Below are positions 901 to 6,645 of a stretch of 39,191 nt of DNA, one piece after another; within the stretch, counting starts at the first letter, position 1, and each line of letters begins with the position of its first letter. The translations under genes and the position numbers were made by a program. This stretch comes from a virus (lineage: Duplodnaviria > Caudoviricetes). The notes below the pieces were generated by a model. That model did no database searches and had not been told where the DNA came from. It saw nothing but the letters and a program-made list of their open reading frames with translations. Where the stretch lies: the IMG/VR virus record IMGVR_UViG_3300010214_000036, positions 1 through 39,191 of that record. One strand, written 5' to 3'.

Positions 901-1500
901 ATGACCAAGAGCCTCCCGATCATCGCCGCCGCCATCCTCGCGCTCACCCTCACGGGATGCAGCACCGCCGGAGCGACCAAGATCACTGAGGCTCCCGAAC
1001 CGATCGCCAGCGAGACCGCCGGCACCCCTATCCCCGACGTCGTCGGCATGCCGGGCAACGACGCACGCGACGCCCTCCTCGCGGCCGGCTTCCTCGTCGA
1101 GTTCGACGCCGACGGGAAGGTCGTACTCATGGCTGGGAACTGGAACGTCGAGGCACAGTCCCCCGCGGCCGGAGAGACCGGCGCCGCCGGCGACACGGTC
1201 ACACTCACCGTCTCGAAGCCCGAGAAGGAGCCGACCGCCCAGGAGGCAACCTCGACCGGACTCACTGGCACCTACGCACAGGCAGCATGCGACATGCGCG
1301 GCGCCGCCGAGTTCCCGTTCGGGTGGGACCCCCACTGGATTCTCGGCAAGCTGGCCGACGAGATCCAGGATGACCGATGGTTCCTGAAGGCCACAGCCGA
1401 CGTGAAGAACGAGTACAACGCGGAGCAGGAGATCAACTTCGAGTGCTACGTGAGCGGCACGAACGAGGCGCCCGTCGTCGAGGAGTTCCTCGCCTACTGA
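901..1500 (+). CDS. Lipoprotein with PASTA-like domain
   Basis: Signal peptide with lipobox LTGC. IPDVVGM...A..AL..AGF...V.AQSP.AG...GDTVTLTVS is a PASTA pattern. TAGGCT -10 lies 6 nt before the ATG. Confidence 0.8.
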   Translation: MTKSLPIIAAAILALTLTGCSTAGATKITEAPEPIASETAGTPIPDVVGMPGNDARDALLAAGFLVEFDADGKVVLMAGNWNVEAQSPAAGETGAAGDTVTLTVSKPEKEPTAQEATSTGLTGTYAQAACDMRGAAEFPFGWDPHWILGKLADEIQDDRWFLKATADVKNEYNAEQEINFECYVSGTNEAPVVEEFLAY

Positions 1501-1516
1501 ACCGTACGATCGAGTC

Positions 1517-1804
1517 ATGCGCCTCATCGGTACCATCCGCCCCACCGCCACGACTGAGCTCGTCGCCGAGGGACATGACCGAGGCTCCGCCTACGAAGCA
1601 CTCGAAGCGCTCGTCCCGGCCGGGCACGAGCTGATCCAGGCGCACTTCTCGATGAAGGCCGGCGTCACGACCGCACGCGGCACCATCCGCCCAGACCGAC
1701 CCGAGACGATCGAGGCCGAGGGTGCCGACTACGCGGCCGCGAACGCCGCACTCGAGGCGCAGGTACCCGACGGGTACGTGCTGCTCGGACGTGTGCAGGC
1801 ATGA
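1517..1804 (+). CDS. Hypothetical protein made of two tandem ~45-aa repeats
   Basis: GTIRP..T.E..AEG.D...A..ALEA.VP.G..L occurs twice. TACGAT -10 lies 6 nt before the ATG. Confidence 0.8.
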   Translation: MRLIGTIRPTATTELVAEGHDRGSAYEALEALVPAGHELIQAHFSMKAGVTTARGTIRPDRPETIEAEGADYAAANAALEAQVPDGYVLLGRVQA

Positions 1805-1805
1805 A

Positions 1806-1836
1806 CTGAGTGCCTGACACGAGGCCAGGCACCCAG
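1806..1836 (-). terminator. Stem-loop terminator between convergent genes
   Basis: ctgagtgcctga / ccaggcacccag form a 12-bp stem on the minus-strand RNA with two G-U pairs. Confidence 0.6.
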
Positions 1837-1847
1837 CCCATCGCGAG

Positions 1848-1967
1848 CTACGCCGTCGTGGCGTCGATCGCCTTCATGAGGTTGATCAGCATTCCGATCA
1901 GGCGACGCAATGCGTCAATCAATCGTGCGATCTGACCCCACTGGGGACTACGATGGTGGTACTTCAT
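1848..1967 (-). CDS. 39-aa cationic amphipathic peptide, candidate type I toxin
   Basis: Strong SD GAAGGAG (1974-1980) 6 nt before ATG 1967. Sequence MKYHHRSPQWGQIARLIDALRRLIGMLINLMKAIDATTA. Confidence 0.65.
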   Translation of the reverse strand: MKYHHRSPQWGQIARLIDALRRLIGMLINLMKAIDATTA

Positions 1968-2058
1968 TTGGTGCTCCTTCCAGAGCGTCAGCCCGAGGCG
2001 GCTACCTCGGGGAGTTGTGAACATCGGACCCCCTCGCCGGATGGCGTGGGGGTCTTTC
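1961..2058 (+). ncRNA. Putative antisense RNA covering the SD and start codon of the peptide gene
   Basis: TACGAT -10 at 1949-1954, hairpin 1992-2011, terminator-like hairpin 2027-2054 followed by TTTC. Confidence 0.4.
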
Positions 2059-2300
2059 ACGTAGAAGCTACGACCGAATTCCCACAGCGCCGGAAGCGAC
2101 ACGCCGAGAGATGTCGTAGGTTCACCTCAGCGAATGTGCCTACGATGAGTGGTTTTGACCCCAGTGGGGCTCGTGAATTCGACCCGGGGCCATCTTCCTA
2201 CCGCCCATGGACATTCCGGCCGCGACATGCGCCGCGAGCCCGCACAGCCGCGCAACCCCGTCGCCTTTCTGTCCTGACCAGACGGTGTTAATGTGGCGTT

Positions 2301-2555
2301 ATGTTCGCATCCGGCATCGCCTCCGTCGCTCTGGCCGCTGCACTGCAGCTGCTGGCGTGGGCCGGCGCACCCGGGTACGTCCACGTTTGCTCGGGCGCTT
2401 TCGCTCTGCTCGGGATCAGCCTGCTCCTTCTGGACCTTCGCCGAGAGCAGGCGGCGGCGCAGCGGGCTCGTCGTGAGGCTTGGAAGGCACTGGCCGAGGC
2501 TCCTGCACACGTTCAGTCGTATGTGATTGCTCGGCTTGCTCGACAGCATCGCTGA
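2301..2555 (+). CDS. Small two-TM membrane protein
   Basis: Two hydrophobic segments then a basic tail. Extended -10 TGtTAATGT lies 6 nt before the ATG. Confidence 0.6.
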   Translation: MFASGIASVALAAALQLLAWAGAPGYVHVCSGAFALLGISLLLLDLRREQAAAQRARREAWKALAEAPAHVQSYVIARLARQHR

Positions 2556-3057: not shown

Positions 3058-3321
3058 TCACGCGTAGGCGTGCACGACCGCCCACCCTGCCCCGCCGCGC
3101 AGCGCGTCGAGCACGAACGACTCCCCCGCCTCGCTCGTGGCCTGGAACCGCCACCCGGCCTGCACCTTGCCGGGGTGGGTGATCATCGGCGGAACGTCGT
3201 CGGCGTCGGCGTAGAGCGGGGTCGGGGTGTCGGTGACGCGCCACCGCTGCTCGCGCCAGTACAGGCGGACCGGGCGGTCCTGCTCGATCCAGAGGGTGGC
3301 GTGGTCGGTCAGGGGGATCAT
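3058..3321 (-). CDS. Small Trp-rich beta protein (DUF6504-like), probably SOS regulated
   Basis: GGAGG SD before ATG 3321. RPVRLYWREQRWRV...WRFQA...FVLD...GW pattern. SOS box upstream. Confidence 0.7.
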   Translation of the reverse strand: MIPLTDHATLWIEQDRPVRLYWREQRWRVTDTPTPLYADADDVPPMITHPGKVQAGWRFQATSEAGESFVLDALRGGAGWAVVHAYA

Positions 3322-3345
3322 GGTGCGCCTCCGGGCTTGCGAGAT

Positions 3346-3361
3346 TCGAAATTTTGTTCGA
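3346..3361. promoter_or_regulatory. Actinobacterial LexA (SOS) box
   Basis: TCGAAA-TTTT-GTTCGA has one mismatch to TCGAAC-N4-GTTCGA and lies just downstream of a minus-strand promoter. Confidence 0.75.
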
Positions 3362-3370
3362 GAGTTAACG

Positions 3371-3398
3371 AGCATACGCCCCACCGCTCGACCGTCAA
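3371..3398 (-). promoter_or_regulatory. SigA-type promoter for the 3058-3321 gene
   Basis: TTGACG (3398-3393), 16 nt, TATGCT (3376-3371). Confidence 0.6.
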
Positions 3399-3410: not shown

Positions 3411-3689
3411 ATGCGCTACTGGACCCCGAAACTCAGATCCATCCGTGACGGCGAATGGGTGCAGTTCGACCGCGGCCGCCGCATCGCGATCATCCGCCGC
3501 ATCGGCGCCGGCCACCCGCCCCGCGAACTCCTCCGCGCCGACACCTGGGCCGACGACCCACGCGCCCGCGACTTCCTCGGCTACTTCCCCGTCGACGAGC
3601 TCCGCCTGGCCGCGGAGATGGTGTGGGAGGTGTACCAGGCCGCGATCGACGCCCGGAAAAGCCGAGGCACCGCCCGTGCCGCAGCCTGA
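3411..3689 (+). CDS. Hypothetical protein with ssrA-like C terminus
   Basis: 92-aa ORF with coding-like composition, ending ARAAA. Weakly similar to the next gene. Confidence 0.7.
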   Translation: MRYWTPKLRSIRDGEWVQFDRGRRIAIIRRIGAGHPPRELLRADTWADDPRARDFLGYFPVDELRLAAEMVWEVYQAAIDARKSRGTARAAA

Positions 3690-5278: not shown

Positions 5279-5500
5279 TCAGGTGGCGTGGTCGCCACCG
5301 GCTCCGCCGCGGAACGCGATCGACGTCAGGATCGACGTCGCGGCGGCGAGGCCGGCGACCGAGGCGACCTGCACCGGGTCGATCTGGAGGATGCCGGTCA
5401 CGCCGGCGCCGATCGCACCGACCGCGGCCTGCGCAAACGTGGCGACCGCACGGTCGGCCGTGTCGATCCAGAACTGCTTGCTGGCGTACTTGGAAGCCAT
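5279..5500 (-). CDS. Holin (r1t-like)
   Basis: FW.D.A.RA..TFAQA motif and hydrophobic helices, in the lysis cassette. Confidence 0.85.
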   Translation of the reverse strand: MASKYASKQFWIDTADRAVATFAQAAVGAIGAGVTGILQIDPVQVASVAGLAAATSILTSIAFRGGAGGDHAT

Positions 5501-5512
5501 CAGGGCTCCTCT

Positions 5513-5929
5513 CTAACGGGGAAGGCCGTCAGGCCATTCGGGCGGGGGCGGCGGCTTGCCGTCCCAGATGTGCGCGCGGAGCTCGTGCGCGTGGTTGCGG
5601 TACCCGTCGCGCTCGCGCATCAGATCGTGGTTGCGGTCGTCGACCTTCTGCATCCGCTCCTCGAGCCGGGCCGTGCGCTCGGTCTGCTCGGCCCGGTGCG
5701 CGGTGAGCTCCTCCTGCAGCTGGTCGATGAGCTGCTGCTCGTTCGACTTCTCCGCGACTGCGGCCGTCGTCGCCGCGGTCTGCTTCGCGATCTCGACCTG
5801 GCTGGCCGCCTGAGTCGCTGCCGTGGTACGGGCCGTCCTCGCCGAGACGAAGTAGCCGACCACGATCCCGACCGTGCCGATGATGCCGACGCCAGCAGTG
5901 ACCAGGCCGCCGAAGAGCCATTCCGGCAT
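5513..5929 (-). CDS. Lysis-cassette membrane protein (TM plus coiled coil)
   Basis: N-terminal TM, long coiled coil and PPPPP tail, between endolysin and holin. Confidence 0.8.
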   Translation of the reverse strand: MPEWLFGGLVTAGVGIIGTVGIVVGYFVSARTARTTAATQAASQVEIAKQTAATTAAVAEKSNEQQLIDQLQEELTAHRAEQTERTARLEERMQKVDDRNHDLMRERDGYRNHAHELRAHIWDGKPPPPPEWPDGLPR

Positions 5930-5940
5930 CAGCGCCCGCC

Positions 5941-6645
5941 TCAGCGTGCCGCGCGGACGGCGTCCACGGCGGCCATGATGACCCTCGCGTGCGCCTCGGT
6001 CACCTCGGCCCAAGGCGGGGTGTCCATCGCCTTCGCCAGCCGGTTGTTGTACTCGCCGTCGACCTCGGAGTGGTTCGCGCGGAACCCGGAGTCGGTGTTG
6101 TAGACGCAGTACTCGGTCTTCCCGTCGGCGCGGCGCTTCCAGTACATTCCGCTGTTCTTCGCCATGTCGTCGTCCTCCTCGGACTTGTCGAGCTCGGCGG
6201 TCTCTCCGCCGGCCGTGGTGCTGCCTCCGAGCGCTGCGCGGATGCGGGGCGCCGGGTCGAGGGTCGGGCCCTCGAAGATGCCCTCCGCCTGGTCGGAGAG
6301 GGTCGTGTGAATGTGGGCGCCGAACCACGTCTTGCCGGGACGGTCGTCGGTGCCTGCGACCTCGGCGATCTGGCCGAGCTTGCGGACGACCTGGCCGACG
6401 CGGACGCCGACGTTCCGTAGGTGCGCCCAGCCGATGTACCGGCCGTCCCTGGCGCGCCCTTCGACGCACCAGCCGAGCCAGTAGGACCAGCTGACGGTCG
6501 TGATCGTGATGTCCTCGTACGCGAGCACCGGGTCGCCCACCGAGGCGCGGTAGTCGGCACCGGAGTGGCCCTGCGGGCGGGAGTAGTAGTCGGCCTTCTC
6601 GCCGAACGGCGTGGTGAGGGTGCGGTAGGTGGATGCGAGCGACAT
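5941..6645 (-). CDS. Endolysin, M23 peptidase
   Basis: HSGAD and HIH zinc motifs, WAHL, V.VGQ.V...GQIA; AGGAGG SD. Confidence 0.88.
   Translation of the reverse strand: MSLASTYRTLTTPFGEKADYYSRPQGHSGADYRASVGDPVLAYEDITITTVSWSYWLGWCVEGRARDGRYIGWAHLRNVGVRVGQVVRKLGQIAEVAGTDDRPGKTWFGAHIHTTLSDQAEGIFEGPTLDPAPRIRAALGGSTTAGGETAELDKSEEDDDMAKNSGMYWKRRADGKTEYCVYNTDSGFRANHSEVDGEYNNRLAKAMDTPPWAEVTEAHARVIMAAVDAVRAAR

What the first reader, a model, noticed from the sequence alone, without database searches (positions are those of the whole stretch)
1806..2070. Candidate new type I toxin-antitoxin module: 39-aa peptide plus antisense RNA
Seen: minus-strand -10 TAGCTT (2070-2065), a ~90-nt leader with two hairpins (2027-2054, 1992-2011), a strong SD, a 39-aa peptide with amphipathic periodicity (IARLIDALRRLIGMLINLMKAI) and a terminator at 1806-1836. 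On the plus strand, TACGAT (1949-1954) and a hairpin-plus-TTTC terminator define a ~100-nt RNA complementary to the SD and ATG. Known: this is the layout of type I TA loci. I do not recognise the peptide family. Inference: prophage addiction or abortive-infection module missed by ORF callers.
Basis: partly seen in the sequence, partly recalled or inferred. Interest (0 to 1): 0.8.

Follow-up and report, generated by a model that had tools for sequence, protein, structure and literature searches.

The report
WhiA-boxed actinobacterial type I toxin-antitoxin candidate
A prophage and two plasmid-like elements of Agromyces soil bacteria share a 350-base cassette that encodes a small membrane-type peptide, a predicted opposite-strand RNA covering its start signal, and a promoter shaped like those of host cell-division genes, so it is likely a new toxin-antitoxin pair, in a bacterial group where none was found described, that would be timed to cell division.

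Summary
The 39-aa ORF (1967-1848, minus) has two homologues (about 40% identical) on ParB-type plasmid/ICE-like contigs of Agromyces. A sister element lacks the whole cassette, from promoter to terminator. All three copies keep an antisense -10 (TANNNT) at the same codon register although the amino acids differ (recoding null 1e-4 to 0.02). They also keep a three-hairpin antisense fold over the SD and start codon, and a 3' mRNA hairpin. New: the peptide promoter is GCGTGTCGCT-N23-GTAG[CG][GT]T. This is a reversed WhiA box (GACACGCC) at the same spacing as upstream of Agromyces ftsE, ftsZ, phoH2 and a cell-wall gene, so the host WhiA/WhiB division activators likely drive it. The peptide is one cationic amphipathic helix without a classic transmembrane segment and without a Pfam, PHROG or NCBIfam match. 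Corrections: gene callers did not miss the ORF, and nothing supports abortive infection. The family has only three members found. Best reading (0.6): an addiction module whose toxin mRNA is loaded at cell division. Interest 0.7.

The parts
2098..2107 (-). GCGTGTCGCT box (reverse WhiA site; the plus strand reads GACACGCC at 2098-2105; the 10-mer spans 2095-2104 on the plus strand), 27 nt from GTGTC to the -10
   Evidence: Invariant in all three copies; same geometry upstream of Agromyces phoH2, ftsE, ftsZ and a cell-wall gene; only such site in the window. WhiA binding inferred.
2065..2070 (-). -10 element TAGCTT of the peptide mRNA (start predicted near 2058)
   Evidence: TAG[CG][GT]T at fixed spacing in all three copies
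2027..2054 (.). Strong hairpin: 5' leader hairpin of the mRNA and predicted terminator of the antisense RNA (TTTC follows on the plus strand)
   Evidence: equivalent hairpin in both homologues, with a T run on the antisense side in L003 but not clearly in L016
1992..2011 (.). Middle hairpin of the leader / antisense RNA
   Evidence: equivalent helix in homologues, 3 of 7 pairs with two-sided changes
1974..1981 (-). Shine-Dalgarno GGAAGGAG, predicted partly hidden in a local stem
   Evidence: Sequence; P(unpaired) about 0-0.05 for GGAG in the window, partly paired in homologues
1848..1967 (-). 39-aa cationic amphipathic helical peptide gene (candidate toxin, P0001)
1949..1954 (+). Antisense -10 TACGAT inside codons 5-7 of the peptide
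   Evidence: TANNNT at the same codon register in all three copies, and the only such site in each CDS
1961..2060 (+). Predicted ~100-nt antisense RNA (candidate antitoxin): short free 5' tail over the start codon, hairpin over the SD, middle hairpin, terminator
   Evidence: transcription not shown
1801..1841 (-). 3' hairpin (terminator without U tract) of the peptide mRNA
   Evidence: 5 of 5 listed variants in two public runs keep minus-strand pairing, two of them forming one compensatory pair

Best explanation
The locus is a mobile cassette that encodes a 39-aa amphipathic peptide and a predicted cis-antisense RNA over its ribosome-binding site, and it likely works as a type I toxin-antitoxin (addiction) module whose toxin mRNA would be switched on by the host cell-division activators WhiA/WhiB. 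Shown in sequence: the ORF, its two homologues, the conserved promoter box, the conserved antisense -10, the conserved hairpins and an empty site. Inferred steps: (1) WhiA/WhiB bound at the GACAC box activate the mRNA around division; (2) the hairpin-capped mRNA is stable and only weakly translated because its SD is partly paired; (3) a ~100-nt RNA from a promoter inside codons 5-7 pairs with the leader, SD and start codon and blocks translation or triggers duplex decay; (4) a daughter cell that loses the prophage or plasmid loses the antisense RNA first, translates the inherited mRNA, and the cationic amphipathic helix disturbs the membrane or envelope and stops growth.
For: Homologues: L003:7079-7201 (Agromyces neolithicus, E 3.9e-5) and L016:1480-1602 (G018, E 0.005), each with SD, leader hairpins and 3' hairpin. 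Antisense -10: codons H-R-S / H-T-T / Q-D-T keep A..TA. It is the only invariant T among 14 invariant third positions, and a shared site arises in 1.2e-4, 0.006 or 0.02 of synonymous recodings under three codon models. Antisense fold: same dot-bracket layout in the window and L003. The SD-covering hairpin uses 2-3 G-U pairs and folds at -7.7/-7.7/-4.7 on the antisense strand against -7.4/-1.5/-1.0 on the sense strand. 10 of 33 pairs change on both sides; 0 of 500 shuffles reach that. Cassette: L095 1866-2234 (promoter to 3' hairpin) is replaced by about 31 nt in the sister element L096, with flanks 91% and 93% identical. Context: a provirus and contigs with ParB, SRAP, a type IV coupling protein and a ParA/MinD-type ATPase. 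Promoter: pattern in 38 of 100 Agromyces genomes against 2 for the reversed control; 29 of 30 fetched loci lie upstream of phoH2. In G031 the 7 GTGTC-N27-TANNNT sites include ftsZ, ftsE, phoH2 and a cell-wall-type gene. GACAC/GACACGCC is the WhiA motif (PMC3781837, PMC10243135, PMC13473873). M. tuberculosis phoH2 is a WhiB2 ChIP promoter target and falls on knock-down of whiA (log2FC -0.53) and whiB2 (-1.04). Peptide: one helix, residues 9-39; charge +2 to +6; moment 0.67-0.74.
Against: Only three members, so the recoding null and the pair counts ignore shared ancestry, and the structure was derived from the same three sequences. No expression evidence: the public runs are contigs with small shares, which show neither strand nor transcription. 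In G018 the minimum-energy antisense fold differs at the 5' end and the terminator has no clear U tract. The peptide lacks a classic transmembrane stretch (best 19-residue hydropathy 1.22-1.46). No match to a known toxin family; the ESM-Atlas TisB/DinQ neighbours score 0.75-0.80, which is chance level. No 5'-3' long-range pairing, and the SD-hiding stem is not conserved in form. The N27 spacing is not enriched by count: 7 sites against 9 for the control in G031; my count of the listed rows for spacers 23-31 is 5,5,4,0,7,8,2,3,5. ftsZ had it in 1 of 4 genomes checked. Published WhiA sites vary in spacing and orientation (PMC10243135, PMC3781837).
Confidence: 0.6

Rival explanations
1. An antisense-controlled but non-lethal effector: the peptide is a division-timed modulator, for example a coiled-coil partner of a divisome or envelope protein or a superinfection/entry-exclusion factor, and the antisense RNA only tunes its level.
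For: WhiA-type promoter shared with ftsE/ftsZ; heptad-like hydrophobic face with best helical angle 104-106 degrees and no true TM segment; it sits among prophage accessory genes next to a PASTA lipoprotein.
Against: Tight cis-antisense control over SD/ATG of a sub-50-aa amphipathic peptide is the type I TA hallmark (PMC8167048, PMC12390103). Gain or loss as one cassette on unrelated mobile elements fits a selfish module.
Confidence: 0.2
2. A small WhiA-driven peptide gene with a structured 5' leader and no functional antisense RNA; the antisense -10 survives by descent and the hairpins serve mRNA stability.
For: n = 3; hairpins fold on both strands; G018 lacks a clear antisense U tract and folds differently; under uniform synonymous usage the shared TANNNT has P 0.02; no RNA data.
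Against: The SD-covering hairpin forms well only on the antisense strand in two of three copies, through G-U pairs. A..TA is kept across changed amino acids against a GC3 of 0.74-0.85. The T run follows the big hairpin on the antisense side in two of three copies.
Confidence: 0.15
3. An abortive-infection or anti-phage module triggered when an incoming phage shuts off host transcription. It could coexist with toxin-antitoxin function.
For: Any labile-antitoxin system can act this way (general knowledge); prophage location.
Against: No defence-island context seen; two of three copies are on plasmid/ICE-like contigs near parB; the promoter points to the cell cycle, not to infection.
Confidence: 0.05

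Closest known systems
AapA/IsoA type I TA of Helicobacter pylori (PMC8167048, passages)
   Same: Small peptide gene with a cis-encoded antisense sRNA that inhibits toxin production; overlap at the 5' leader (that detail recalled).
   Different: No sequence match; no 5'-3' long-distance pairing predicted here; WhiA-type promoter; other phylum.
SymE/SymR of E. coli (PMC8167048, passages)
   Same: Antisense RNA pairs with the toxin 5' UTR and blocks translation; toxin promoter under a host regulator.
   Different: SymE is a nuclease under LexA repression; here a 39-40-aa amphipathic peptide under a predicted activator.
TisB/IstR-1 and DinQ (PF13939, PF28061)
   Same: Short amphipathic helical peptides; nearest named ESM-Atlas clusters for both queries tested (0.75-0.80, lead only); host-regulator-driven toxin promoter.
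   Different: No Pfam match at E 10; IstR-1 is trans-encoded with limited complementarity and tisB is LexA/SOS-controlled; no LexA box at this promoter.
Plasmid/prophage addiction modules Hok/Sok, Fst/RNAII and the C. difficile prophage type I systems (search listing; details recalled)
   Same: Mobile-element location, small peptide plus antisense RNA, proposed post-segregational killing.
   Different: No sequence similarity found; no classic TM helix; not known to be tied to a cell-cycle regulator.
WhiA/WhiB co-activated promoters (S. venezuelae sepX, ftsZ; M. tuberculosis GACACGCC regulon incl. phoH2; PMC10243135, PMC3781837, PMC13473873)
   Same: GACAC(GC) box on the template strand upstream of a poor -35; same geometry as Agromyces ftsE/ftsZ/phoH2.
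   Different: Here it precedes a mobile peptide gene, not a host gene; binding untested.

Membership tests
Type I toxin-antitoxin system | Small (<60 aa) protein gene with its own promoter, SD and terminator | tested here: met
   conserved in three copies
Type I toxin-antitoxin system | Antisense RNA gene complementary to the toxin mRNA (sequence signals) | tested here: met
   Conserved antisense -10, conserved fold; terminator T run in 2 of 3
Type I toxin-antitoxin system | Antisense RNA is transcribed, is unstable and represses translation | not testable with these tools
   Only contigs of public runs were available
Type I toxin-antitoxin system | Protein is toxic and is neutralised by the RNA | not testable with these tools
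   Needs bench assay
Type I toxin-antitoxin system | Toxin is typically a hydrophobic helix with one transmembrane segment | tested here: inconclusive
   Single helix, strongly amphipathic and cationic, best 19-residue hydropathy only 1.22-1.46
Type I toxin-antitoxin system | Translation-inert full-length mRNA (SD hidden, often by 5'-3' pairing) | tested here: inconclusive
   SD locally paired in the window, partly in homologues; no long-range pairing
TisB / DinQ / Hok / Ldr / Fst / AapA toxin families | Profile match to the family | tested here: not met
   0 Pfam and 0 NCBIfam families at E 10 for 3 of 3 members; 1 unnamed PHROG at E 0.41
Known Rfam antitoxin RNAs | Covariance-model match | tested here: not met
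   2 matches at E 1.2 and 1.9, far below gathering scores
WhiA/WhiB-activated promoter | GACAC(GCC) motif upstream of the core promoter | tested here: met
   GACACGCC 2098-2105; GACACGC in both homologues
WhiA/WhiB-activated promoter | Same geometry as host division-gene promoters | tested here: met
   ftsE 3 of 4 genomes, ftsZ 1 of 4, phoH2 4 of 4, cell-wall gene 4 of 4; no enrichment by raw count
WhiA/WhiB-activated promoter | WhiA binding and WhiA/WhiB-dependent transcription | not testable with these tools
   Host genomes encode both (3 of 3); not found in the 86%-complete provirus; binding untested

The most novel reading that the evidence does not exclude
A cell-cycle-gated addiction module, and the first type I toxin-antitoxin family of Actinomycetota: mobile elements borrow the host WhiA/WhiB division switch to load stable toxin mRNA just before septation, when a daughter can lose the element, while a labile antisense RNA from a promoter hidden in the toxin codons keeps carriers safe.
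Probability: 0.35. Interest if true: 0.85.

Novelty: new variant of a known kind. Interest (0 to 1): 0.7.

Why it matters
A 2025 paper (PMC12390103, passages read) states that type I TA systems were known only from Proteobacteria, Firmicutes and Tenericutes before its cyanobacterial case. My five literature searches listed no actinobacterial type I pair; the nearest title is an antisense-co-regulated type II RelBE (PMC9325379, listing only). The library lacks most subscription papers, so this is not proof of absence. If real, the cassette extends type I TA to a new phylum with a new peptide family. It would also tie toxin expression to a cell-division regulator, a link not listed by searches. 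It is only about 350 bp, so every step can be tested directly, and it gives a search rule (WhiA box, short ORF, TANNNT hidden in early codons) for more such modules.

Tried and rejected
Wider homologue searches found no fourth member. phmmer over 1.84 billion representatives: self plus 4 long repetitive proteins. Word-index searches: 1 of 1 and 3 of 8 candidates. Viral contigs: 0 of 31, 0, and 74 pattern hits of which 0 had a short ORF with SD. Metagenomes: 5 hits, all chance. Family sample: 9 of 401, only G002 real. Order sample: 4 of 401, only G002 real. Genus with the alignment: 5 of 100, 2 real. GenBank phages and PLSDB plasmids: none. Covariance model R1: 36 of 100 genomes at E<=0.05, but of 30 loci fetched only the two model members carry the promoter. 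The 18 loci around the divergent SOS-type neighbour gene held no further cassette. Promoter pattern in viral contigs: 5 hits, none with a peptide; one search used a wrong spacer and served only as a control. The LexA box beside the homologues belongs to the divergent gene, is kept at the empty site, and is absent from the window promoter, so SOS control is rejected. A second trans-acting RNA from the TACGAT at 2141 is not supported: unstructured (z 0.1), no terminator, and a 13/14 repeat arises in 4 of 150 random stretches. The longer in-frame ORFs (58 and 84 aa) and the plus-strand 112-aa ORF are not called proteins. Public runs: 6 of 8 laid runs have their main piece on the cassette, but all are contigs with small shares, so they are not used as expression evidence. 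PDB sequence search: nothing below E 0.3. A peptide oligomer prediction was not obtained.

Full report
Setting. The window is a whole virus record, classed as a provirus, 86% complete. It carries an integrase at 1-840, holin and M23 endolysin at 5279-6645, and tail, head and terminase genes. The finding lies in an accessory stretch between lysis genes and integrase. The host is inferred to be an Agromyces-like actinobacterium, because the neighbouring 95-aa gene has its best relatives (67-78%) in Agromyces.

Observation. Both predicted RNAs fold better than all 200 shuffles. The 3' hairpin is longer than stated (1801-1841), much more stable on the mRNA strand, and has no U tract. The generic promoter/terminator scan finds nothing. 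The ORF is a called gene, so it was not missed by annotation, but it matches no Pfam, PHROG, NCBIfam or PDB entry and the region matches no Rfam family.

Homologues. A tblastn of the peptide against loci fetched for the neighbour gene gave one clear hit in Agromyces neolithicus (L003:7079-7201). A search of 100 Agromyces genomes added one in G018 (L016:1480-1602). The three peptides are 39-40 aa with 13 invariant columns. No further member appeared in any wider search (see Tried and rejected), so the family is rare or too divergent for a three-sequence model. Both homologues lie on plasmid- or ICE-like contigs: ParB, SRAP, a type IV coupling protein and an IS21-type element in G002; ParB and a ParA/MinD-type ATPase in G018. 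A sister element in A. cavernae (L096) matches the A. neolithicus flanks at 91% and 93% but has about 31 nt in place of 369 nt that run from just upstream of the promoter box to the 3' hairpin. The cassette is therefore gained or lost as a unit.

Antisense RNA. In all three coding sequences the only antisense TANNNT falls at the same codon register, although the residues differ (H-R-S, H-T-T, Q-D-T). The T at that third position is the only invariant T among 14 invariant third positions. Random synonymous recoding gives a shared site in 1.2e-4 (window codon usage), 0.006 (GC3 0.65) or 0.02 (uniform) of 50,000 trials each; this null ignores common descent. The predicted RNA has the same layout in the window and L003: 7 free bases over the start codon, a hairpin over the SD, a middle hairpin, and a terminator followed by a T run. 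The SD-covering hairpin contains 2-3 G-U pairs and folds clearly better on the antisense strand in both homologues, and about equally in the window. On the consensus structure 85% of cells pair and 10 of 33 pairs change on both sides, beyond all 500 shuffles and all slid controls, though with three sequences and a structure derived from them. Against: in G018 the best fold pairs the 5' end differently and no clear U tract follows.

mRNA. The SD is predicted paired in the window and partly paired in the homologues, by different partners. No long-range 5'-3' pairing is predicted. Near-identical copies occur in public runs. In X3 and X4, 5 of 10 differences are listed; all 5 lie in the 3' hairpin and keep minus-strand pairing, two forming one compensatory pair, while one breaks a plus-strand pair. 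Depth is under 5 and the two contigs are probably the same sequence. The four listed changes in X6 spare both -10 elements, the box and the stems. None of these contigs shows transcription.

Promoter. The DNA alignment shows an invariant GCGTGTCGCT exactly 23 nt before GTAG[CG][GT]T in all three copies. This pattern occurs in 38 of 100 Agromyces genomes (40 matches; reversed control 2), and 29 of the 30 loci fetched lie upstream of one host gene, identified as phoH2. GTGTC is the reverse of the WhiA motif GACAC (PMC3781837 and PMC10243135, passages and one section read), and the window has the full 8-bp GACACGCC reported for M. tuberculosis WhiA and WhiB2 (PMC13473873, passages and section 33). 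In that paper's supplement phoH2 is a WhiB2 ChIP promoter target and drops on knock-down of whiA or whiB2. In G031 the 7 sites of the minimal pattern GTGTC-N27-TANNNT precede ftsZ, ftsE, phoH2 (all above NCBIfam cut-offs), an aggregation-promoting-factor-domain protein, a RimJ-like acetyltransferase, an unnamed membrane protein and one doubtful ORF. In three more genomes, 19 sites include 2 ftsE, 3 phoH2, 3 of the cell-wall gene, both peptide promoters, and a ParA-like gene on the G018 element, named by eye from its Walker A motif. The pattern is unique in the window. Against: the spacing is not enriched by raw count, ftsZ showed it in 1 of 4 genomes, and published sites vary in spacing. I put WhiA/WhiB control at about 0.7. 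Hosts encode both factors; neither was found in the provirus. Earlier scan notes report WhiA boxes on other actinophage promoters; these are unchecked leads that I saw after forming this reading.

Peptide. AlphaFold gives one helix, residues 9-39, mean pLDDT 83, for the L003 member. Charge is +4, +6 and +2, and the hydrophobic moment 0.67-0.74 (reached by 12, 43 and 7 of 2000 shuffles). The best 19-residue hydropathy of 1.22-1.46 is low for a transmembrane helix (the usual threshold near 1.6 is recalled). The nearest named ESM-Atlas clusters are TisB and DinQ at chance-level scores. A surface-seeking or oligomerising membrane-active helix is the most likely form; this is inference.

Mechanism. 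I commit to a type I toxin-antitoxin addiction module (0.6). The ORF, homologues, conserved signals and empty site are shown. Transcription, antisense repression, toxicity and WhiA/WhiB activation are inferred. Division-timed loading of a stable toxin mRNA would suit post-segregational killing, since elements are lost at division. Rivals: an antisense-tuned non-lethal division or exclusion peptide (0.2), no functional antisense RNA (0.15), abortive infection as the main role (0.05).

Comparison and novelty. It works like the 5'-overlapping cis-antisense systems (AapA/IsoA, SymE/SymR) and resembles TisB-type peptides physically (PMC8167048, passages), but fails every family profile, so it is not a member of a named family. 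PMC12390103 (passages) lists no Actinomycetota among phyla with type I systems, and searches listed none; searches listed no TA system under WhiA. PMC10730256 (passages) covers Firmicute toxins. The library omits most subscription papers and T1TAdb itself was not searchable. Verdict: new variant of a known kind, interest 0.7, held down by three members and no expression data.

Noticed in passing
window 1933-1946 and 2156-2169; 1948 and 2140: Near-palindrome TGACCCCA(C/G)TGGGG occurs twice, each beside CTACGAT: once just upstream of the antisense -10, once just downstream of a second TACGAT. Not conserved in the homologues. Could be an operator pair or a trans-pairing seed; a 13/14 match arises in 4 of 150 random stretches.
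   Followed up: partly
G018:C2:2169-2206 (L122): A ParA-like gene on the same mobile element as one homologue has the same GTGTC-N27-TANNNT geometry, leaderless or nearly so, suggesting that partition is also tied to WhiA/WhiB.
   Followed up: partly
Agromyces chromosomes, e.g. L055-L084, L117-L120: A conserved WhiA-type promoter class at phoH2, ftsE (leader of 1-2 nt), ftsZ and a cell-wall gene; a similar box lies about 200 nt upstream of a whiB gene in G002:C2. This outlines an Agromyces WhiA/WhiB regulon.
   Followed up: partly
window 3346-3361: LexA-type box between two divergent small genes (3058-3384 minus, 3411-3689 plus); like boxes flank related SOS-type small genes in many Agromyces loci. 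Motif name recalled.
   Followed up: no
window 901-1500: PASTA-domain lipoprotein right after the integrase, similar in kind to a prophage moron in an earlier scan note (e1-3448151); possible exclusion factor.
   Followed up: no
window 1517-1804: 95-aa gene with an internal two-fold repeat, convergent on the peptide and ending inside its 3' hairpin; relatives in Agromyces and Leifsonia, no Pfam hit.
   Followed up: partly
window 2301-2555: 84-aa two-helix membrane ORF with a TAATGT -10 placed for a leaderless start; not a called protein; a relative is in RNA-seq contig X8.
   Followed up: no
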